Shown: in pieces, positions 39,853 to 58,075 of the stretch
Layout of the letters: every line of letters begins with the position of its first letter
How positions within the stretch are numbered: position 1 is the stretch's first letter
From: a virus
Virus record (IMG/VR): IMGVR_UViG_3300021335_000004
Strand: one strand, 5' to 3'
Length of the DNA: 64,000 nucleotides
Program-made: the position numbers and the translations under genes
Notes under the pieces: model-generated
Database searches by the model: none
Told to the model about the DNA's origin: nothing
Seen by the model: the letters and a program-made list of their open reading frames with translations, nothing else

Positions 39853-42800
39853 TTAACCTCTCATCGCTTTTCTTACACGACCATTATTTTTAATATCTTT
39901 AACAACCAAATCAATAATCATTTGACCTGTATCAGTCCTCACTTGAGTAGTTTCTACTTGCTGAGGTGTTCCATTATTTTGAACATTTACAACTACATTA
40001 TTACCAGAATTCATTTTGCCAGTTGCATTAAGTTGATTAAGAGCTGATCCTCCAATAGCTTTAGCAGCTGGTTTTCTTATAACAAACTCTCCAGGCTCTA
40101 GTAAAGCAGGCACTCTGTCTCTTCTAGCAACAACAGAACCACCCCCAGCGTATCCCTGAACTTTATTACCAAAAGGTACTGAGCCGCCGTGTGCTGCTCC
40201 AGCCCCAAAAGAAGCTACTGCTTTTTGAATAGCAATTTCTAAAAACATTTGTGCAAAAGTAGCAATCATAGCAGTTTTGAAATCACCAGTAGCCGCCGCA
40301 ACTGTAGCAAAAGTAGCTACTGTAGCTCCAGATATATTATCTAAAAACCCAGTAGTTTGTTCTTGTGTGCCTTGTAATAAATCAGCAGTTTTTTTCTTTT
40401 CTGCATTAACATCAAGACCTCTATCAGAACCGACTATTGTGCCTCCATGTCTTAAAGCAATAGGATCAGTGACAGCACTCGATGCTCCGCCGGTTAATCT
40501 AGCAGAAGCGTCAGCTGATCTACCTGTGTTAGTTCCTGATGCAGCACTAATTCCGCCAGAAAGTGTTTGGTTTAGTTGTTTTAAGGTCATATTAAGATCT
40601 TCTAGAACTTTACGTTGTTGGGCTTCCAACTGATCTTTAGCTTTATCTGCAAACCCTGATAATCCAGGAAGCTTGGTAATACTTTCTTTAAGATAATCAG
40701 TAATAGGAGTTACAAGACCTTCTTGAATAATGCTCTTTTGAATATCCGCTAATATATTGTATAGAAATTGATTAAAGCCATCTCTGAAACCTTTTAAAGT
40801 TAGAGTACCTTTAGCAATTGATTCAAATAAAGATTCTAAAGACCCTTGCAAATTAGTTTCAAATGATTGAACAAATGTAGAAACTACAGCAGCTAACATA
40901 CTATTACTTGCTTCTATTTGAGCAAGAAAAACACTAAAACCTACTGTAAGATTTTGTATAGCCGCTTCAGTTTCCTTATATTTTATTTCAACACTTTTTA
41001 ATAGAGCAGCTCTTTCTTCTTCTAAAGCATTTGTTCTTGCTTGCCCTTTGTTTGCATTAATTTGTGCTTGAGCAGCATTATTTGTAGCATTAGCACTTGC
41101 CCTGACAGCTTTTTCATATTTAGTAATAGCAACCTGATAATCTTTTTGAAGATCATTGCTTATACGTTGTGCACCGCTTAAGTCATTTAAAGCAGCTATT
41201 CCCCCAGTTTGAATTCTTACAAATTCTTTTCTGACTTCCTCAAGACTGTCAGCTTTAAAGTCCTGTAATCCTAAAGTCTTACCTAGCTGCGTTGGGCTTG
41301 TTTTTGGGTCTACTTTAGCAAATGCTTCCTGAAATCTAGATTGGGCTAAAGCCTCAGCGATACCTTTAACATGTCCTTTATAAAGCTCTCCCTCTTGTAT
41401 AATGAAATTAGCTCTTCTTTCAAAACTTTCTCTTTGTAATCTTGACGAGGCTATCTGTGCTTCTGCTGTTTTTTGAGCAACATCTGCTTGTTTCTCAAAA
41501 GCTACTTTTTGTAATCTTTGAGTCTCTATCTCTACTTTAATTTTATTATCTAATATTTTTGCTTGAAGAGCAGTAGATTTTGCAAAAGAATTAAATTCAG
41601 CTATTAAATCAGCTAAAGAGTCTTCAAAAGCTCTTGTTTCAAGTTCAATTTTTAATTCTCTTTTTTGTGAAGAACTTAATAATGCTCCTAAAGGAGTACC
41701 GCTCAAAGCTTCTTGAAGTGTTAACTCAAAATCTCTAGCTGTTCTATTAACTTCATTTAAAGCTGAGGCTAATTGTCTACTTTGTTGAACTTGTTTAATT
41801 TGAACAGTCAATGATTGATTTCTGAGATCATAATTAGATTTTAATAGTTCTTGTGCCTGTTTATTTAAAGTAATAAATGTTTTATCATTAAGCTCTCTAG
41901 CTTGTTTTGTTAATTGACTGGTTTGTTTTTTAAGTTCATCTGTAATTTTTTTCTGTGCTTGGAAATTTTTCTCAGCTGCACCAACTAAGGCTTTTCTCGT
42001 AGTTAACAGCAATACTTCTAAATCTTTGGTTCTTTGACCTTCATCACCGCTTTCTTTAGCGATGGCTAATTCAAGTTGTGCGTTTGCTACTGTTTCTTTT
42101 AAATACCTGACCTGATTTAACCTTCTCTCTTCAGCCGTTGCAGCAAACTTACCTTCTTTGTCAGCATAACCAAGTAAAGATTCATAAGCTTTTATTTCGG
42201 CACCAAATACTTGTACTATTTTTTTTCTTTCTGTAACAAGCACACTAGTTTGTTCAGTCTGAATTTTTAATATTTCTGCCGCTTGTTTAAGAGTAGATAG
42301 TGCCTTTTGATTTTCTTCATTTAAATTACCTAAAGACTCAAGCTCTTTAATTCTTGTTAATATACCTGATAGTTGTCTTGCAGAATCTTCCGCGTTAGTT
42401 AATCCTTTTTGAAAATCTCCAGCTAGTTTAGTCACAGAAACAAGTGTTTCTTGTATTTTTTTACTTCCAGTAGCGTCTGTTTCAAATTTAAAACCTTTTT
42501 GAAGAGTCTCTGCAATTGCGTCAGTAAAAGCTGGTGCTAATTCATTTTTTATAGCTAATCTAAATTTGTCACTATTAGCACCTACACCTTTGATAAGCTC
42601 AGTTTCAAATTTGTCAGTAATTTGTTGACCTGCAATACCTAGAGAATCTGCTAAGGCTCCTATTTGCTCTACTCCAGCTCCTTCAGCATTTTTAACCGCG
42701 TTTATAATTGCTAGTTGTATAGCGCTAGCAAGAGGTTTTTCTGCTTCACTAAAATCTTTTGCACTTTTTCCAAGAAGTGATTCAATAGCGTCTTGTGCTA

Positions 42801-44580
42801 TTTTTGCAGTTTGGGTGTTGTCTGCTCCTGATTTTATAGCAGTAGAAACACTAGATTGAATGGTTTTTTCTATATCGTCTGCTTTAATTTGTTCTGTAAT
42901 TGTTTTACTAAATGGTCCGAATCCTATATCTATTTTTATTTCCATACCATCAAAGTTTTTTAATTCTTTTTGTGCTTGTATTGCGCTGTTTGTAATAGCT
43001 GTTATACCTTCTGCTGCTTCTTTCGACCCGCCGTTAGCTGTTTTTAAATATCTACCAAATGTTGTTAAAACTCTGTTTAGTTTTTCTGTAACACCTAACC
43101 AGTCAGAGAGTACTGACACTACAGCTGCTATAGCAGTACCGAATAGAACAAGAAAGTTAACTATTCTTCCTATAATACCTAAAGCTTTACCGATACCTCT
43201 TATACTTTTTTCTACAAATAGTAGACTTTTAGCAGTGGTTCTTGCAATAATACCTTGTCTTTTTAGAACTACGTTTGTTCTTTGAATAGCTGCGGCTAAT
43301 TGTATTTCAGAAGCTGTTCTTGATTTTAATTGGCCTTCTAATGTCTTAGTACTTCTACCAGCCGCTTTAGCTGTTGCTATGCGTTTTTCTAAATCTTTAA
43401 TTGTTTTTTTAACAGCAGCTTGTTCTCTTAGCAAAGCTTTTTCTAATCTATTAACTCCTGCTATATCTAAATTACCTTCTCTGCCTTTTTGTACAAGGCC
43501 TGAAATATCTGCTTTACCGTCTTTAGTAAGTCTAGACAATTCAAAACTTTTAGGGTCTAATCCTTTTTGAAGATTTTTTAGAGAAGCGGTAGCTTTTTTA
43601 GTACTTGTAGTCCAGGCATTAATCTTATTAATACCTGTATCTATGTAAGCAGACATGCCAGCAAAAGTTTTTGTACCGAAACTGCCAAGTTCTCTTAATG
43701 CGACACCAAAAACTTTTACTCCTACAACAGCGAATAAAGTAACTTTGGCTAATAGATTTTCTGTAAAAAATTCTGCTAGTGGAGCTAAATATTTAGTTAA
43801 CACGCTGCCTATATTATAACCCAGATCTATAAAAGAAGCAGAAAAAGCTTCAAATGCCTCTGCAGTAGTAGGAGTTACAGTATTAATAGCTCCAAATTTA
43901 CGCTGACCTTCTTCGATAGCCGCGTTTACAAAAGCCTGTCTTCTTTCAAATGATGTAAGGGAAGCGGCGGATTTGCCTAAAGATACCGCGTAAGCTTCTA
44001 CGGCTGGTTCTATTCTAGTAAAAATACCAAGTTCGTCCAAAAGTTCTGGTTCTAGTTTCGCAGTACCTCTAGTTAATCGGGTAAGAGCATCAGTTAAATT
44101 TCTTCCTAAAGCTCTTGATGCTTTAAGAGAAACCTGTGTTAATCCTTCAATTTGTGTTTGATTGAATCCCGCTGATAAAGCGATGTTTACAGATCTAGAA
44201 GCCTCAATTAATGTTAATTGTCCTTTAGTAATTTCTCTAACACTATTAAGAATTTCTGTACCATTAGCACCTACAGCGGCTGCTAAAGTATTAGTACCTT
44301 GAATAATTTGATCAAATTGAGCAGCCGCAGATAGAGCTGAAAAAGCTTGTTGAAGTGCGAAAACTGTTGCAGCAGCACCAGCATAAGCAGACACTAAACC
44401 ACCTAAACCTTGAGATTGGGCAGCAAATTGTCTTCCTGAAGAAGCAGATGCTTTACCTAGATTTTGTTGAGCCCTAATAGTTTTATTTTGTGAATCACCT
44501 AAAGTTTTAACTTCACTAGCAGCTTTTTTAAAACCTTTAGCTTCTGCTTTTATAGTAACTTTTTGTATTTTAGCTGCCAT
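39853..44580 (-). CDS. tape measure protein
   Basis: 1575 aa, Ala/Lys/Gln-rich helical; T5 pb2-like N-terminus GRQFAAQSQGLGGLV.AYA, KLEPELLDELGI; C-terminal DRVPALLEPGEFVI. Confidence 0.93.
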   Translation of the reverse strand: MAAKIQKVTIKAEAKGFKKAASEVKTLGDSQNKTIRAQQNLGKASASSGRQFAAQSQGLGGLVSAYAGAAATVFALQQAFSALSAAAQFDQIIQGTNTLAAAVGANGTEILNSVREITKGQLTLIEASRSVNIALSAGFNQTQIEGLTQVSLKASRALGRNLTDALTRLTRGTAKLEPELLDELGIFTRIEPAVEAYAVSLGKSAASLTSFERRQAFVNAAIEEGQRKFGAINTVTPTTAEAFEAFSASFIDLGYNIGSVLTKYLAPLAEFFTENLLAKVTLFAVVGVKVFGVALRELGSFGTKTFAGMSAYIDTGINKINAWTTSTKKATASLKNLQKGLDPKSFELSRLTKDGKADISGLVQKGREGNLDIAGVNRLEKALLREQAAVKKTIKDLEKRIATAKAAGRSTKTLEGQLKSRTASEIQLAAAIQRTNVVLKRQGIIARTTAKSLLFVEKSIRGIGKALGIIGRIVNFLVLFGTAIAAVVSVLSDWLGVTEKLNRVLTTFGRYLKTANGGSKEAAEGITAITNSAIQAQKELKNFDGMEIKIDIGFGPFSKTITEQIKADDIEKTIQSSVSTAIKSGADNTQTAKIAQDAIESLLGKSAKDFSEAEKPLASAIQLAIINAVKNAEGAGVEQIGALADSLGIAGQQITDKFETELIKGVGANSDKFRLAIKNELAPAFTDAIAETLQKGFKFETDATGSKKIQETLVSVTKLAGDFQKGLTNAEDSARQLSGILTRIKELESLGNLNEENQKALSTLKQAAEILKIQTEQTSVLVTERKKIVQVFGAEIKAYESLLGYADKEGKFAATAEERRLNQVRYLKETVANAQLELAIAKESGDEGQRTKDLEVLLLTTRKALVGAAEKNFQAQKKITDELKKQTSQLTKQARELNDKTFITLNKQAQELLKSNYDLRNQSLTVQIKQVQQSRQLASALNEVNRTARDFELTLQEALSGTPLGALLSSSQKRELKIELETRAFEDSLADLIAEFNSFAKSTALQAKILDNKIKVEIETQRLQKVAFEKQADVAQKTAEAQIASSRLQRESFERRANFIIQEGELYKGHVKGIAEALAQSRFQEAFAKVDPKTSPTQLGKTLGLQDFKADSLEEVRKEFVRIQTGGIAALNDLSGAQRISNDLQKDYQVAITKYEKAVRASANATNNAAQAQINANKGQARTNALEEERAALLKSVEIKYKETEAAIQNLTVGFSVFLAQIEASNSMLAAVVSTFVQSFETNLQGSLESLFESIAKGTLTLKGFRDGFNQFLYNILADIQKSIIQEGLVTPITDYLKESITKLPGLSGFADKAKDQLEAQQRKVLEDLNMTLKQLNQTLSGGISAASGTNTGRSADASARLTGGASSAVTDPIALRHGGTIVGSDRGLDVNAEKKKTADLLQGTQEQTTGFLDNISGATVATFATVAAATGDFKTAMIATFAQMFLEIAIQKAVASFGAGAAHGGSVPFGNKVQGYAGGGSVVARRDRVPALLEPGEFVIRKPAAKAIGGSALNQLNATGKMNSGNNVVVNVQNNGTPQQVETTQVRTDTGQMIIDLVVKDIKNNGRVRKAMRG

Positions 44581-44591
44581 TTGTTACATCC

Positions 44592-44960
44592 CTACCTCGT
44601 TTTACTTTTAGCTCTAGCTTCTGCTTGTTTACGTTGTTGTTCGTAATGTTTACCATATTCCTGAATACAGATTTGTAGCATTTCAAAAGTATCTTTCCAA
44701 TCTATCATCTGATATATATTCATTATATCTGTTAAACCTGCATATTCTTTTCCAAGCCAAACACCACTCATTCCCTCAACTTTATCTGGCAAGATATTCA
44801 TAAGAATTAAGGCTTGTTGAGCAGATATTGACAAATCGCTAGGGTCTAAAGGCTCATCATCAAAATCAGTCCAACCCATTTGATCAGCCATTTGCCAGTA
44901 TACTTCTTTACTAATACCACCCCCAACAAAACTAGTTTGAAGGTAGTGTATTAGTTTTTT
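44592..44960 (-). CDS. tail assembly chaperone GT extension (reached by -1 frameshift)
   Basis: The -1 frame is open from the A AAA AAC slippery site into ORF 44592-44891. Confidence 0.75.
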   Translation of the reverse strand, partial: KKLIHYLQTSFVGGGISKEVYWQMADQMGWTDFDDEPLDPSDLSISAQQALILMNILPDKVEGMSGVWLGKEYAGLTDIMNIYQMIDWKDTFEMLQICIQEYGKHYEQQRKQAEARAKSKTR

Positions 44961-45382
44961 TCCGCAGTCTCTTTCTTCTTAGTAGAAAAAGTTTCTAAAT
45001 CACTCATACAATCAGTAACAAACTGATCAAAAAGTGAAGAGTTTTTAATTAAGAATAAAGCTTCTTCTTCTGAATAAGGAATTGTTTCATCTAATTTAGA
45101 ACTAGATAAATCAACTGGCAATAAGTTAGGAAGATCTTTCATTTTTAAACCTTTCCAACCTCTAATAGCTTTTTTTGTATACGCTTCTAAGAATTTATCG
45201 TTATCGATTTCTTCTTCTCTTTGACGAGTGCGTTTATTAAAAGCGTATTTTAAACTTGCATTTCTAATTTTAACTAAGTCTTCTCTATTTAGATAAGCAA
45301 TCTTAATAAAAAAACCTTCAATATCTGGATATTCTACTTCTGAAATTGTTTCAGTTGCAATTAAATTTTGAATTTTACTCAT
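44951..45382 (-). CDS. tail assembly chaperone (gpG-like)
   Basis: Lies between the tail tube and tape measure genes; ends GCG GAA AAA AAC TAA. Confidence 0.85.
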   Translation of the reverse strand: MSKIQNLIATETISEVEYPDIEGFFIKIAYLNREDLVKIRNASLKYAFNKRTRQREEEIDNDKFLEAYTKKAIRGWKGLKMKDLPNLLPVDLSSSKLDETIPYSEEEALFLIKNSSLFDQFVTDCMSDLETFSTKKKETAEKN

Positions 45383-45403
45383 TTTTCCCCCTAGTTAGGT
45401 TAT

Positions 45404-45503
45404 AAAAAAAGGGTGTTCATCATATATTAGCTTAGGCTAAGCTGAGGGGGAAGCTTGCTTTCGCTGATGATGAACACCCACATGAAATTTATTACCCCCT
45501 CAG
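45404..45503 (-). ncRNA. structured cis-regulatory RNA / terminator after the major tail gene
   Basis: 13-bp stem GGGTGTTCATCAT/ATGATGAACACCC followed by T7, interleaved with a 9-bp CTGAGGGGG/CCCCCTCAG pairing. Confidence 0.6.
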
Positions 45504-45516
45504 ATAATATCATATA

Positions 45517-46821
45517 TTAATTATTGTCACTCTTTACAAAGAACTGAATTTCGTCTCCACCACCTCTTTGCTTTTCTTGTGCAAGAAAATCAACTGACAT
45601 TCCGAGAACATCATCAATTTGATGAACTGGGAAATTAAACTGAACAGCCGGCATATTGATATGTAAATATGGAGCTACACCACCGCCAATTTGGATATTG
45701 GCAGAACTGGTAGACGCATGTGACACACGAGAATCGTTAACAACTTTATTCAAGAACTGTGCTGAGTTAGCTCTAACAGAGGTCTCAGAGGCAGATCTTA
45801 GATATGCTGTAAATGAACCAGTAATTGTTCTAGATCCAGTAAACTGTCCAATTGGAGTATTCAATGCTGCTAGCTCTTCAGGTGTTAAGTATGTAACATC
45901 ATTTGAATAGCTGAAAGATAGTCCTGTTACTGGGAACGAGTAAATATTCGCTCCTTCTATAGCACTTCCTTGGTGACTAATAGAAATCGCACTTAAGCGG
46001 TTTTTAATAAAGTCAACAGTATAAGTACTACCCTCTACATTCATAGTAGCATAAGGATGATGAGCAGCTTCTGCGTCCATACTAATACTAGCATTAGGAG
46101 TAACAGTAGATCCATCGTTTCCAACACCACCAAATACTGCAATAGCCTTAGCTCTTGCATCTCCAGTAAGTTCTACCATCTCGGTACCAAAACCGCTCCA
46201 GGTAGTAGTAGCAATTCCATCAACAGAAGCGTCGATTTCACCAGTATTAACAATAGCACTTTTAACTTGGTATACAAGGTTATCAAGCTTAAAATACATA
46301 TGATTTTCTTGTGCAATAGCGAAGTTTGATCTACTTGAGTGGGTATTAGCAGAACCTGCTGTATTAGCAGATGCTAACTTAGCAGAACTAGTAGCTGTAT
46401 CATAGTGCCAAATAGATTGCTCTCCGCCGTTAGAAGATGCGGGCTTAGTGTTACTTACAAGAGCTTGCCAGAGATACCAATCAGCAACAGGTTTAGTATT
46501 GCCTGTTTCTGCAAGACCAGTTCCTTGTGAGCCATTGTTTACTTCTGCTCCTGTAGGGCGTAAATATGTTTGGAAATTCCATTCCACGGGGTTTCTTGCT
46601 GTGTTAAAGCGCTGAACGCTTCTATCTGGGTCTAATCCACTTTCTAATGAAGTGATATCTTGCACCGCAGAATCAGCAGAAAGTGCATATCCAGCTAGAA
46701 CCTCAATTCTCCAAGTATTTTGAGGGGTAAGGTCAGTAGCTGCGGTAGCACTTAGACTTAGATCTTCTACAGAGTAGAAGACTTTAGTATTTCTTTGTAG
46801 GTTTAGCTGAGTACCTGCCAT
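45517..46821 (-). CDS. major tail tube protein (T5 pb6-like)
   Basis: LQRNTKVF.S, TW.IEVL.GY, RFNTA.NPVEW.F.TYLRP, N..TYLTPEEL..LN.PIG.FTG.R.ITGS.TAYL; AAGGAG RBS. Confidence 0.9.
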   Translation of the reverse strand: MAGTQLNLQRNTKVFYSVEDLSLSATAATDLTPQNTWRIEVLAGYALSADSAVQDITSLESGLDPDRSVQRFNTARNPVEWNFQTYLRPTGAEVNNGSQGTGLAETGNTKPVADWYLWQALVSNTKPASSNGGEQSIWHYDTATSSAKLASANTAGSANTHSSRSNFAIAQENHMYFKLDNLVYQVKSAIVNTGEIDASVDGIATTTWSGFGTEMVELTGDARAKAIAVFGGVGNDGSTVTPNASISMDAEAAHHPYATMNVEGSTYTVDFIKNRLSAISISHQGSAIEGANIYSFPVTGLSFSYSNDVTYLTPEELAALNTPIGQFTGSRTITGSFTAYLRSASETSVRANSAQFLNKVVNDSRVSHASTSSANIQIGGGVAPYLHINMPAVQFNFPVHQIDDVLGMSVDFLAQEKQRGGGDEIQFFVKSDNN

Positions 46822-46831
46822 TTTTAACTCC

Positions 46832-47284
46832 TTAGTTTTCTATATCTAATTCATAATCAATTATAATTTCTATTTCTGATATTCCGTAAGGTTTTACTAA
46901 TCCCTCATCAGTATCTATACTAGAAATAATTATATCACGGATACTGTAAACTCCAGTATCTAAGTTGTATATTATGTGTTCTATGTCTTGAATCAAACTA
47001 TCTAAACTACCAGACGATTCTTCATCATTGACATAAATTCTAAGAGTTAGTGGTATTAAACCTGTGGTATTACCTGAAGTATTGTATACCCTAACTTCTT
47101 CTCCGACTTGAAAAAATATTGATGGAAAGTCATTTACTTCATCTAAAAATTTTACTTTTCTAAATACATTGCTAAATATATTGTTTTGAAAAGTATAATT
47201 AGAGTTTAATGAAGAAATAGACCCATCTATAAGTTTTAAATTTGTAAGAATATGGTTTATTATGTTTCTTCTTTGATTCGACAT
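46832..47284 (-). CDS. tail terminator protein (T5 p142-like)
   Basis: FLDEVNDFPSI, TDEGLVKPYG; synteny. Confidence 0.8.
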   Translation of the reverse strand: MSNQRRNIINHILTNLKLIDGSISSLNSNYTFQNNIFSNVFRKVKFLDEVNDFPSIFFQVGEEVRVYNTSGNTTGLIPLTLRIYVNDEESSGSLDSLIQDIEHIIYNLDTGVYSIRDIIISSIDTDEGLVKPYGISEIEIIIDYELDIEN

Positions 47285-50205: not shown

Positions 50206-50240
50206 AAAATAGGGCAGGCGTTGTATACACCTGCCCTGTT
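50206..50240 (-). terminator. Rho-independent terminator after the capsid gene
   Basis: AGGGCAGGTG-TATACAA-CGCCTGCCCT-ATTTT on the minus strand. Confidence 0.75.
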
Positions 50241-54642: not shown

Positions 54643-55909
54643 AAATACTAACTTGACCCCTAAGATCGGAATAGATTGCATACCTTATAGCATCACAACA
54701 GTGAGAGGTCCAATCATGAATAGGTTTTTGCTTTTCTGTTCTCTCATTCCACCTATATGCTGCCATGGAATCAAAAGAGTGCCTAGCATTATCTATATCA
54801 AAACTAAGACTATCATGATCTACTAAATTTGCTATAGACAAAATTCCATCATTAACACTTTTTTGAGCATTTTCACAATATATATCATAATCATATGCTA
54901 AATCTGCTTTGGTTTGCTGCGCTGCAGAGTCAATGTAAATAGCATCTACATCCCATTTATCTGCAATTTCTTTTATGTGTATAGCATGAGTAGAAGTAGT
55001 TCCCTCTTTTGCTACATATTCATCAACTACATAAAACTTACCTTCAGAATCCTTTGCAAGAACTACAAAAGCGGTCTCATCTCTATACCCAATATCTAAA
55101 CCACCAATAAATTCATATCTGTAGTCTCCAGGAACAACTTCTTCTATTTGTCGTAGATGTTTATTTTCGTCAATATTATATACTTTACCTTCAAGAGTTA
55201 TCCAGTCACATTCATATTCTTGTCCAAATAGATTTTTACTCATACTTTTACGAGCTTCATCTATATCAATTTGATTTAATAAAGGGTTAGCTCTCCAAGT
55301 GAATCTTGCACTGCCCCAAGTTTCAAACTCAGGATCTTGGCCTCTTAAATAATATTCATATAAATAATTTCCCTTACCTCTAGGAGTAGAAATCCATAAA
55401 CAACGTGAGTCAGGAAAGGTTGATAAAGCAGGACGTAAATCTCTAGTAAAATATTCTTCGTTAGGTATAATCGCTGCTTCGTCTACAATTAACAAGTTAG
55501 CAGCTCTACCAATTAAACTATCTCTATTATTCGCAGATAATAATCTAAAAGTGCTTCCATTAACAAGCCTAATTACTTTATCTTTTTGATTAAAGCGTTC
55601 AGTCTCTAAAGATAAGTCTCTAATTATTTGAGTAGTATAATCCCAAATAATTGAAGATAAAGAGAAATTTGGAGCAACAACCATAACTTGAGTTCCTGGC
55701 TCTAATAATTTAGCAAAAGCTAAAATAGCCGCTGCATAAGATTTACCAGTACGTCTCGCAGATATATGTACCCAAAAACGATTGTTTTCAAGACCTTCTA
55801 CCATACCCCACTGGCTTTCATTCAACTTAAGATCAAGTTGATTAACCATAGGTATTTTTTGTAATAGTTTTTCTAAGTTTATTTTAAAAAATTTATCTTT
55901 ATCGCTCAT
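54635..55909 (-). CDS. terL: terminase large subunit
   Basis: ARRTGKS, VDEAA, ISTPRG.N, F.QEY.C, GLDIGYRD.TA, SHCCDAIRY. Confidence 0.96.
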   Translation of the reverse strand: MSDKDKFFKINLEKLLQKIPMVNQLDLKLNESQWGMVEGLENNRFWVHISARRTGKSYAAAILAFAKLLEPGTQVMVVAPNFSLSSIIWDYTTQIIRDLSLETERFNQKDKVIRLVNGSTFRLLSANNRDSLIGRAANLLIVDEAAIIPNEEYFTRDLRPALSTFPDSRCLWISTPRGKGNYLYEYYLRGQDPEFETWGSARFTWRANPLLNQIDIDEARKSMSKNLFGQEYECDWITLEGKVYNIDENKHLRQIEEVVPGDYRYEFIGGLDIGYRDETAFVVLAKDSEGKFYVVDEYVAKEGTTSTHAIHIKEIADKWDVDAIYIDSAAQQTKADLAYDYDIYCENAQKSVNDGILSIANLVDHDSLSFDIDNARHSFDSMAAYRWNERTEKQKPIHDWTSHCCDAIRYAIYSDLRGQVSIYA

Positions 55910-56208
55910 TTAAAAACACTAATTGTAGTATAAATAAAACTAAGTAGTCCTGCAATAAAAACTCCTATAAACACTAAAGTTTTAAGGCTTGTTTTACCTT
56001 GTGTCGCAAGTTTTTTTAAATCTTGAACTTCTTCAAAAGTATATTGTATCTGTTCTTGAAGTCTTTCAAAATTTTCCATTATTTTTTCATATCTTGCAGC
56101 ACAAACGGCTTCATGAGTAGCAAACTCAGACTTAGTAAGTTGAGTTCTTTCGTGAAGAGTTTCAATATCTTTATGAATTTGATCGAGTTCTCTCTCAGTA
56201 CCCATCAT
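55906..56208 (-). CDS. coiled-coil protein with a C-terminal TM helix (holin-like candidate)
   Basis: HEAVCAARY coiled coil plus hydrophobic C-terminus; GGAG RBS before ATG 56208. Confidence 0.6.
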   Translation of the reverse strand: MMGTERELDQIHKDIETLHERTQLTKSEFATHEAVCAARYEKIMENFERLQEQIQYTFEEVQDLKKLATQGKTSLKTLVFIGVFIAGLLSFIYTTISVFK

Positions 56209-56249
56209 TTTCTCCAAAAACTCCCCCTCAAGTTTTATCTAATTGTTAA

Positions 56250-57499: not shown

Positions 57500-57508
57500 A
57501 TTTTCCCC

Positions 57509-58075
57509 TCATTCTATATTAAAACTGATCGATATTCTGTCTTGAGTATTTTTATTCGGTTCAACATAATGCTCTAACCATGATGGAAATAGTATACATG
57601 AACCTGATTCAGGTGTCAAACCATAATTTTTTATTCTAATCCGGCTGGTCTCTGATCTACCTGCGGGATTTACTAAAACTAATTTTCCAGAATTTTCTGG
57701 TGCGGATACCCAATATACACCGCTTAAAGTACCACTATGTACATGATGAGCATTATAAGAGTATTGAGAATTAATATTTGCCCACATAGAGTCAATAAAA
57801 ACTTCTTTATTAATTCTTTCACTAAAATCTTTCGCAATATTATTACTTATATCTAAAAGAGGTTGGATTAATGGTTTTAAAAAATTGCTATATTCTTGAT
57901 ATATATAATCATGACTTTGCCAACCTAGAAAATTAGATCTATTTTTTCCTTCTGTGGTATCTCGTAACCAGTAAACAAAATCAAGTAGCTCTTCATTAAA
58001 AGAGCTACTATCAGGTATATTAAACCCCCATATTGGAACAGATAAAATTTCTTCTTTAAAATCTAAATGATTCAT
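57509..58075 (-). CDS. 2OG-Fe(II) oxygenase (TIGR02466-like)
   Basis: SN..GWQS, MWANIN..YN..HVH..LSGVYW, LFPSWLEHYV.PN...RISISFN. Confidence 0.9.
   Translation of the reverse strand: MNHLDFKEEILSVPIWGFNIPDSSSFNEELLDFVYWLRDTTEGKNRSNFLGWQSHDYIYQEYSNFLKPLIQPLLDISNNIAKDFSERINKEVFIDSMWANINSQYSYNAHHVHSGTLSGVYWVSAPENSGKLVLVNPAGRSETSRIRIKNYGLTPESGSCILFPSWLEHYVEPNKNTQDRISISFNIE

What the first reader, a model, noticed from the sequence alone, without database searches (positions are those of the whole stretch)
45380..45516. Pseudoknot/attenuator-like RNA switch between the major tail gene and its chaperone
Seen (transcript order): A=CUGAGGGGG (45503-45495), B=GGGUGUUCAUCAU (45479-45467), a GC-GAAA-GC mini-hairpin, A'=CCCCCUCAG (45450-45442), an AGCUUA-GCC-UAAGCU hairpin overlapping the end of A', B'=AUGAUGAACACCC (45423-45411), U7, then the chaperone RBS AGGGGG (45392-45387). 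A-B-A'-B' is an interleaved pseudoknot topology with perfect 9- and 13-bp helices. B:B' plus U7 resembles a terminator with an oversized structured loop, and A' is also complementary to the downstream RBS. A begins 13 nt after the tail-tube stop, within reach of a terminating ribosome. Inference: a translation-coupled switch setting the tube : chaperone : tape-measure ratio, or an undescribed structured ncRNA.
Basis: partly seen in the sequence, partly recalled or inferred. Interest (0 to 1): 0.75.

Follow-up and report, generated by a model that had tools for sequence, protein, structure and literature searches.

The report
Conserved kissing-loop RNA after tail-tube gene
The gap between the major tail gene and the tail-chaperone gene of this uncultured T5-like marine phage encodes a conserved, undescribed folded mRNA element, found in every relative examined, which probably sets how much chaperone and tape-measure protein is made relative to tail tube.

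Summary
The 134-nt gap (45383-45516, minus strand) holds the perfect 9-bp (A:A') and 13-bp (B:B') pairings, the U7 run and the AGGGGG ribosome site. Related phage contigs all carry the same element at the same junction, once each, on the sense strand: 132 loci, 62 distinct sequences, tail protein 48-98% identical.

Four helices covary strongly (covariation 0.53, against 0.20 shuffled and about 0.1 slid):
- P1, a hairpin displaying UGAGGGG
- P2 (B:B'), P3 and P4, a 67-77-nt rod whose apical loop is CCCCUCA

The loop-loop core GAGGGG:CCCCUC is invariant in all 62, and its flanking pairs covary.

A U-rich tail follows P2 in 48 of 62. The chaperone ribosome site is complementary to the C-rich loop in 51 of 62. 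Neither feature is universal.

There is no Rfam match, and I found no paper describing it. T5 and the cultured relatives checked lack it.

Best reading: a cis-acting mRNA element combining a leaky terminator or stabiliser with a decoy-SD / anti-SD toggle. The mechanism is inferred, not shown.

First readers of this scan noted the same motif independently in three other genomes.

The parts
45517..46821 (-). Major tail (tube) protein gene, 434 aa, a T5 pb6 homologue. Its TAA stop is at 45519-45517.
   Evidence: PHROG 3575, major tail protein, E 3.8e-45. tblastn to T5 pb6 and relatives, 25-30% identity.
45490..45509 (-). P1 hairpin. Stem UAUUA (45509-45505) pairs with UAAUA (45494-45490). The 10-nt loop UCUGAGGGGG (45504-45495) displays the SD-like motif A.
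   Evidence: CM alignments A3 and A5. All P1 pairs counted show changes on both sides: 6 of 6, and the 4 outer pairs. Constrained single-sequence folds also recover it.
45495..45503 (-). Motif A, CUGAGGGGG, a decoy-SD-like loop sequence. The core GAGGGG is invariant in the family.
45480..45489 (-). Linker J1/2 between P1 and P2. Its length varies across the family; in the window's clade P1 can extend into it.
45411..45479 (-). Rod P2-P3-P4, 69 nt. P2 is B (45479-45467) with B' (45423-45411). P3 is AGC (45465-45463) with GCU (45431-45429). P4 is GCAAGC (45458-45453) with the 3' strand 45442-45436, which has one bulged A. The apical loop is UUCCCCCUCA (45452-45443).
   Evidence: RNAalifold on the plain MAFFT alignment: 12 of 13 P2 pairs compensatory. 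P2 98.6% paired, P3 4 of 4 and P4 6 of 6 pairs with double changes. Rod length is 67-77 nt in the cleanly parsed variants.
45442..45450 (-). Motif A', CCCCCUCAG, an anti-SD-like apical loop. The core CCCCUC is invariant. It pairs with A (kiss) or, alternatively, with the chaperone RBS.
45404..45410 (-). U7 tract directly after P2. Together they have the form of an intrinsic terminator.
   Evidence: In the family, at least 5 of the 8 nt after P2 are U in 48 of 62 variants.
45385..45392 (-). Chaperone ribosome-binding region AGGGGGAA, 8 bp complementary to the A' loop.
   Evidence: I8. It is the second-strongest complement to A' among 58 gene starts in the window.
44951..45382 (-). Tail assembly chaperone gene (G-like, 143 aa), the first gene downstream of the element.
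   Evidence: PHROG 313, tail assembly chaperone. Its start AUG AGU AAA is conserved in relatives.

Best explanation
The gap between the tail-tube gene and the tail-chaperone gene encodes a conserved cis-acting mRNA structure.

Shown:
- A short hairpin (P1), starting 1-15 nt after the tube stop codon, displays the Shine-Dalgarno-like loop UGAGGGG.
- A long interrupted hairpin (P2-P3-P4) displays the complementary loop CCCCUCA.
- The two loops can kiss over 6-11 bp.
- P2 is usually followed by a U-rich tail.
- The chaperone ribosome site, usually GAGGGG, lies 18-36 nt further on.

Inferred mechanism: the element sets the step down in expression from the abundant tube protein to the chaperone, tape measure and later tail genes, in two layers.
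1. The rod acts as a leaky intrinsic terminator and/or 3'-end protector. This enriches tube mRNA.
2. In read-through transcripts the C-rich loop is an anti-SD. It is normally neutralised by the decoy A. When A is made unavailable, it can instead sequester the real chaperone SD. The most likely trigger is a ribosome terminating on, or held at, the tube stop and unwinding P1. Chaperone initiation would then depend on tube translation.
For: - The structure is real. Model R1 hits once per locus, always at this junction, with 66-138 bits on the sense strand and at most 23.5 bits antisense.
- On 62 distinct sequences, 90.4% of cells pair against 71.3% shuffled. Covariation is 0.530 against 0.201 +/- 0.006 (0 of 500 shuffles reach it), and slid controls give 0.09-0.12.
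- Abundant G-U pairs fix the strand as RNA sense.
- The kiss: the core is invariant in 62 of 62. Flank pairs covary: GC 47, AU 5, GU 4 at one position; AU 23, UA 6, GU 3, GC 1 at the next. One-sided changes give G-U (L037 and L063; L203).
- Invariance of both loops, while every helix has been rewritten, fits a third constraint such as the ribosome site or 16S rRNA.
- A' is complementary to the chaperone SD at -10 kcal/mol or better in 51 of 62 variants (mean -12.7). Other gene starts in the window average -6.5 +/- 3.8.
- A:A' is always the stronger pairing (mean -19.8), as expected of a decoy.
- In 9 variants the SD region repeats UGAGGGG exactly.
- GAGGGG is kept even where it lies 10-13 nt from the AUG, a poor SD spacing.
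- A U-rich tail follows P2 in 48 of 62 variants, against a background U fraction of 0.28.
- The other most abundant structural gene (capsid) is followed by only a plain hairpin. The extra parts at the tail junction are therefore specific to it.
Against: - There are no expression or probing data.
- SD:A' complementarity is at background level in 11 of 62 variants (L044, L045/46/49 and the L089 group), although A and A' are unchanged there. The toggle therefore cannot be the universal function.
- The U-rich tail is poor or absent in 14 of 62 variants.
- The association between C-run length in A' and G-run length in the SD is 46 of 52 against 1 of 16 in raw counts. It rests on only 4 phylogenetically independent pairs (sign test p 0.5).
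- In the largest clade only 8-9 nt separate P2 from the SD. A' could reach the SD only if the rod bends.
- The covariation counts use an alignment fitted to the model. However, P2 was recovered from plain MAFFT, and the other helices from single-sequence folds.
Confidence: 0.45

Rival explanations
1. It is an mRNA-stability and termination element only. The rod is a leaky terminator or processing site. The kiss with P1 merely compacts the 3' end of tube mRNA into an exonuclease-resistant knot, so tube mRNA outlasts the downstream message. The resemblance of the loops to SD and anti-SD, and of the chaperone SD to A, would be incidental.
For: - A U-rich tail follows P2 in 48 of 62 variants.
- The capsid gene also ends in a hairpin followed by AUUUUAC.
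- A and A' stay unchanged in the clades whose SD no longer matches A'.
- G/C-rich 6-7-bp kisses are the most stable kind (established knowledge of kissing complexes).
Against: - It does not explain why both loops are invariant in sequence while all helices covary freely.
- It does not explain why the chaperone uses the uncommon GAGGGG site. The window's chaperone site is the second-best complement to A' of 58 gene starts.
- It does not explain why GAGGGG is kept at poor spacing from the AUG.
- 14 variants lack a good U tract.
Confidence: 0.3
2. It is a protein-binding operator. A phage or host protein recognises the GAGGGG and CCCCUC loops, or the kissed complex next to the ribosome site, and represses or activates translation of the chaperone operon. 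This would resemble T4 gp32 or RegA, or ribosomal-protein operators.
For: - Strict sequence invariance of both loops over 62 variants is typical of protein or rRNA contact.
- The element abuts a ribosome site.
Against: - No candidate RNA-binding protein was identified.
- The two invariant motifs are exactly complementary, with covarying flanks. Pairing explains this without a protein.
Confidence: 0.12
3. It is a stand-alone small RNA. The roughly 110-nt P1-plus-rod piece, ending at the terminator, accumulates as a 3'-UTR-derived RNA.
For: - Two other window genes carry UGAGGGG ribosome sites (56224-56230 and 57505-57511). The first pairs with A' as well as A does, at -19.8 kcal/mol.
- Short linkers make an intramolecular kiss geometrically demanding.
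Against: - No promoter or processing site is known for a 5' end.
- There is no Rfam pRNA or other sRNA match.
- The element always lies in one fixed cis position next to the chaperone start.
- The C-rich loop is masked by A in the same molecule.
Confidence: 0.08
4. It is a chance inverted repeat or a non-functional remnant.
For: None beyond the AT-rich context, which makes short repeats common.
Against: Covariation in four helices, presence in every relative that spans the junction, and strand specificity.
Confidence: 0.01

Closest known systems
Intrinsic (Rho-independent) terminators and attenuators placed after abundant phage structural genes
   Same: P2 has a G/C-rich base followed by a U-rich tail (U7 in the window). 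It lies directly after the most abundant tail protein gene. The capsid gene in the same window ends the same way.
   Different: The hairpin carries a conserved 43-nt structured insert (P3, P4 and an invariant loop) and a partner hairpin upstream. The U tract is poor in 14 of 62 variants.
SD-sequestering RNA switches with an anti-SD and an anti-anti-SD (riboswitch expression platforms, erm-type leaders, the long-range pairing that couples MS2 replicase translation to coat translation). Recalled from established knowledge.
   Same: There are three mutually exclusive partners: decoy A, anti-SD A' and the real SD. The upstream cistron's stop codon is close enough for a ribosome to be the trigger.
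   Different: No ligand-binding core is present. Both alternative pairings are loop-mediated pseudoknots rather than nested hairpins. The ground state leaves the SD free. The SD match is missing in some clades.
Recalled from established knowledge.
   Same: Two hairpin loops share a 6-7-bp G/C-rich invariant complementary core, the length typical of loop-loop helices.
   Different: No sequence or model similarity to any of them (Rfam search). The kiss is within one mRNA, between a short hairpin and the tip of a terminator-like rod.
C-rich-loop small RNAs that mask G-rich ribosome sites (RsaE/RoxS type). Recalled from established knowledge.
   Same: A CCCC-containing hairpin loop is complementary to G-rich SD sequences.
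   Different: This element is cis-encoded beside its presumed target and carries its own decoy. There is no Rfam hit.
Tail region of T5 and cultured T5-like phages (Demerecviridae)
   Same: Homologous tube protein (25-30% identity), tail terminator, chaperone and tape measure in the same order.
   Different: In T5, Vibrio phage Thalassa and Vibrio phage D308 the tube gene is followed within 0-14 nt by a p140-like minor tail gene. There is no long gap and no hit to the model.

Membership tests
Any Rfam 15 family | Covariance-model match at or near the gathering score | tested here: not met
   No hit in the gap even at E up to 10. No gathering-level hit in the whole window.
Intrinsic terminator | G/C-rich stem directly followed by a U-rich tract | tested here: met
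   Window: 13-bp P2 with a GGGUG/CACCC base, followed by U7. Family: at least 5 U in 8 nt in 48 of 62 variants, a U run of 5 or more in 28 of 62, and a poor tract in 14 of 62.
Intrinsic terminator | Compact hairpin with a small loop; termination actually occurs | not testable with these tools
Pseudoknot / kissing-loop RNA | Loop bases pair with bases outside their own hairpin, supported by conservation or covariation | tested here: met
   The core of 6 bp is invariant in 62 of 62 variants. Three flank pairs show changes on both sides, and one-sided changes give G-U. Invariance of the core itself says nothing for or against pairing.
Anti-SD / anti-anti-SD translational switch | An anti-SD complementary to the SD of the regulated gene | tested here: inconclusive
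   The duplex is -10 kcal/mol or better in 51 of 62 variants and at background in 11. The window site ranks second of 58 gene starts. Co-variation of A' and the SD is not separable from ancestry.
Anti-SD / anti-anti-SD translational switch | A competitor for the anti-SD and a trigger that shifts the balance | not testable with these tools
   The competitor A exists and always pairs more strongly. The trigger (a terminating ribosome) is inferred only from P1 starting 1-15 nt after the stop.
Riboswitch | Conserved unpaired nucleotides forming a ligand pocket in junctions or internal loops | tested here: not met
   Apart from the two complementary loops, there are no invariant unpaired positions. 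Internal loops and the linker vary in sequence and length.
Self-cleaving ribozymes | Match to a known class, or a conserved catalytic core | tested here: not met
   No Rfam ribozyme hit and no conserved core. An unknown class cannot be excluded by computation.
Translational bypass (T4 gene 60 type) | Matched take-off and landing codons flanking the gap | tested here: not met
   The last sense codon of the tube gene varies (AAU, AAC, AAA, AAG, AGC, UCU, GUC and others) with no matching landing codon.
phi29-type packaging RNA | Own transcript; intermolecular loop-loop ring; similarity to the pRNA model | tested here: not met
   No Rfam pRNA hit. The element lies inside an operon gap. Intermolecular pairing was not testable.

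The most novel reading that the evidence does not exclude
The element may be more than a passive attenuator. It could be a ribosome-operated device built from a cis copy of the SD:anti-SD helix. In that reading, a ribosome finishing the tube protein is captured by, or unwinds, the decoy SD loop. This releases the anti-SD loop and decides on the spot whether the chaperone and tape-measure genes are transcribed through and translated. Alternatively, the terminated 110-nt piece survives as an RNA that multimerises or acts in trans through its complementary loops.
Probability: 0.15. Interest if true: 0.85.

Novelty: new variant of a known kind. Interest (0 to 1): 0.66.

Why it matters
Long-tailed phages must make far more tail-tube protein than chaperone or tape measure. 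How this ratio is set is known in only a few models, and there mainly through the G/GT frameshift.

This is a well-supported, undescribed RNA family that sits exactly at that step in a widespread group of uncultured marine and estuarine T5-like phages. It has an unusual design: a decoy ribosome site kissing an anti-ribosome-site loop at the tip of a terminator-like rod. It is small (about 130 nt), with clear predictions for compensatory mutants. Whether translation of one cistron gates the next through a loop-loop switch is therefore directly testable.

It is also a ready candidate for a new Rfam family, and a marker for this phage group.

Tried and rejected
- Rfam at a permissive threshold on the gap, and at gathering threshold on the whole window: nothing.
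- blastn of the region against cultured phages: nothing.
- Literature searches for a tail-gene intergenic RNA, for a kissing loop with SD in phage, and for structured phage RNAs: nothing relevant. One search was too broad to be useful. The 224-motif paper mentions phage tail protein only in a DGR context.
- Translational bypass or read-through joining tube to chaperone: rejected. There are no matched codons, and several stops follow in all frames.
- A conserved small ORF served by motif A: rejected. An 18-codon ORF exists only in the window's clade.
- The 11-nt direct repeat TAATATATGAT as a target-site duplication of an inserted element: rejected. It is not conserved in close relatives, and near-matches occur at chance frequency.
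- Phylogenetically corrected test of A' against SD co-variation: underpowered, with 4 independent pairs.
- My first U-tract count was distorted by extra outer pairs in some folds. I replaced it with a column-anchored count.
- Host assignment: only two 5-kb MAG contigs, binned to SAR86 and Melainabacteria. These are too weak to use.

Full report
**What is in the window.** The late genes run on the minus strand. They are, in order:
- a tail terminator (46832-47284)
- a 434-aa major tail protein (45517-46821, PHROG 3575)
- a 143-aa tail assembly chaperone (44951-45382, PHROG 313)
- a second chaperone reading frame (44592-44891)
- a 1575-aa tape measure (39853-44580)

The tube protein is a distant homologue of T5 pb6, at 25-30% identity to 908 cultured T5-like phages. 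The window is an IMG/VR virus record of 70.8 kb.

**The observation.** The repeat finder gives A:A' as 9 nt, B:B' as 13 nt, and the A'-to-RBS match as 8 nt, all 100% complementary. CTGAGGGGG occurs nowhere else in 64 kb, against 0.07 expected. The nested fold has -41.6 kcal/mol, z = -3.07.

**Relatives.**
- A search of viral contigs with the tube protein gave 71 loci at 48-98% protein identity. A profile search gave 80 more of 338 candidates. A third search, from a distant member, gave another clade.
- In all 132 loci that hold both genes, the gap is 126-159 nt, with 62 distinct sequences.
- A covariance model built from 32 sequences hits once per locus. The hit is always between the tube stop and the chaperone start, at 66-138 bits on the sense strand. 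The antisense strand never exceeds 23.5 bits.
- The only loci without a hit end at or just after the tube gene (locus lengths).
- Two 5-kb contigs in MAG bins carry it too.
- T5, Vibrio phage Thalassa and Vibrio phage D308 have a p140-like gene directly after the tube gene, no gap, and no model hit.

**Structure.**
- RNAalifold on the plain MAFFT alignment recovers P2 (B:B') with compensatory changes in 12 of 13 pairs.
- Folding each sequence on its own, with the two G/C motifs held open, shows the same plan almost everywhere. A hairpin P1 encloses UGAGGGG. A long hairpin P2-P3-P4 has CCCCUCA as its apical loop.
- On the model-fitted alignment of 62 distinct sequences, 90.4% of cells pair against 71.3% after shuffling. 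The covariation score is 0.530 against 0.201 +/- 0.006 (0 of 500 shuffles). Sliding the partners by 1-3 columns gives 0.09-0.12.
- P1, P3 and P4 have double changes in all counted pairs. P2 is 98.6% paired.
- Frequent G-U pairs (for example 30 of 62 at one P4 position) show that the structure belongs to the sense RNA, not to DNA or an antisense transcript.
- The rod is 67-77 nt in the cleanly parsed variants.

**The kiss.**
- GAGGGG and CCCCUC are invariant in all 62 sequences. The next pairs outward covary: GC 47, AU 5, GU 4; then AU 23, UA 6, GU 3, GC 1.
- Individual variants show one-sided changes that keep a wobble pair (L037 and L063; L203) or shift the paired register (L096 and L088).
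- The invariant 6-7 bp is the usual size of a loop-loop helix (established knowledge).
- Because the core never varies, it gives no covariation evidence of its own. The argument rests on exact complementarity plus the flanks.
- Both loops are frozen while every helix has been rewritten. This points to a further constraint on their sequence.

**Terminator aspect.** Anchored on the last P2 column, the next 8 nt hold at least 5 U in 48 of 62 variants, and a U run of 5 or more in 28. Background U is 0.28. Fourteen variants are poor and one has none. The window itself has U7. In the same window the protease-capsid ORF is followed by a plain 11-bp hairpin, AUUUUAC, then AAGGAG. A hairpin after an abundant structural gene is therefore the local habit, and the tail junction is a decorated version of it.

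**Ribosome-site aspect.**
- Most genes in the window use AAGGAG or GGAG-type sites. GAGGGG or AGGGGG is used by three.
- The duplex between A' and the 25 nt before the chaperone AUG is -15.7 kcal/mol. That is second of 58 gene starts, whose mean is -6.5 with sd 3.8.
- Across the family the mean is -12.7, and 51 of 62 variants are at -10 or better. A:A' is always stronger, at a mean of -19.8.
- Nine variants repeat UGAGGGG exactly at the ribosome site. Several keep GAGGGG although it lies 10-13 nt from the AUG.
- Against the switch: three clades (L044; L045/46/49; the L089 group) have ordinary GAGGA or GAGAGG sites with only background complementarity, yet keep A and A' unchanged.
- C-run length in A' tracks G-run length in the site (46 of 52 against 1 of 16). 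On the tube-protein tree this reduces to four independent pairs, never in the opposite direction, p 0.5.

**Mechanism.**

Shown: a conserved, strand-specific, pseudoknotted mRNA structure at a fixed operon position, with a terminator-like base and loops that mimic an SD and an anti-SD.

Inferred:
- The rod lowers downstream transcription and/or protects the tube mRNA 3' end.
- In read-through RNA the C-rich loop toggles between the decoy and the real site.
- The likely trigger is a ribosome terminating at the tube stop, because P1 begins 1-15 nt after it.

I put 0.45 on this combined reading, 0.30 on a pure stability and termination element, 0.12 on a protein operator, 0.08 on a stand-alone RNA, and about 0.01 on chance.

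**Rejected ideas.** Bypass or read-through, a conserved small ORF, an inserted element with a target duplication, and the two small clade-specific hairpins.

**Known or new.** There is no Rfam family. No relevant paper appeared in four searches, one of which was too broad to be informative, or in two readings. The logic (terminator, SD sequestration, kissing loops) is known. This architecture and family are not described as far as I could find.

First readers of this scan independently noted the same motif, with the same switch idea, in three other genomes. Those are unchecked notes. The related sequences I analysed bear them out as far as structure goes.

**Limits.**
- There are no expression, probing or termination data.
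- The host is unknown.
- Pair counts for P1, P3 and P4 come from a model-fitted alignment.
- Whether the kiss forms within one molecule or between molecules cannot be told from sequence.

Noticed in passing
window 44954-44960 (minus strand), with the -1 frame open from 44978 to 44592: The chaperone G gene ends with the slippery heptamer A_AAA_AAC directly before its TAA. The 99-aa ORF downstream is in the -1 frame and open back across this site. This is the classic G/GT tail-chaperone frameshift arrangement.
   Followed up: partly
window 50211-50237 (minus strand): A plain 11-bp terminator-like hairpin followed by AUUUUAC and an AAGGAG ribosome site. It lies in the 93-nt gap after the 916-aa protease-capsid ORF. 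It is the simple counterpart of the elaborate tail-junction element.
   Followed up: partly
window 56224-56230 and 57505-57511 (minus strand): Two other genes use UGAGGGG ribosome sites. The first (CUUGAGGGGGAG, before the 103-aa ORF 55906-56217) could pair with the C-rich loop as strongly as motif A does (-19.8 kcal/mol). It is a possible trans target, or simply this phage's variant of the ribosome site.
   Followed up: no
window 45509-45519 and 45419-45429: An exact 11-nt direct repeat TAATATATGAT, 90 nt apart. One copy overlaps the tube stop and the other the start of B'. It is not kept in the 92%-identical relative L007, and near-matches occur at chance frequency.
   Followed up: yes
window 45426-45482 (minus strand): An 18-codon ORF (AUG at 45482) runs through P2, P3 and P4 in the window's clade. 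It is not conserved in other clades and has poor spacing from motif A.
   Followed up: yes
L203 and L204 (genome contigs): Two 5-kb contigs carrying the tube gene and the RNA element are binned in MAGs labelled Candidatus Melainabacteria and SAR86 cluster. They are probably phage fragments. SAR86 is at best a weak host lead.
   Followed up: no
L151 (T5), L152 (Thalassa), L153 (D308) compared with window 44951-46821: Cultured T5-like phages have a p140-like minor tail or baseplate tube gene between the tube gene and the chaperone. This uncultured group has the structured RNA gap there instead, followed directly by the chaperone.
   Followed up: partly
whole window: No tRNA genes, and no Rfam family at gathering score, anywhere in the 64 kb.
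   Followed up: yes
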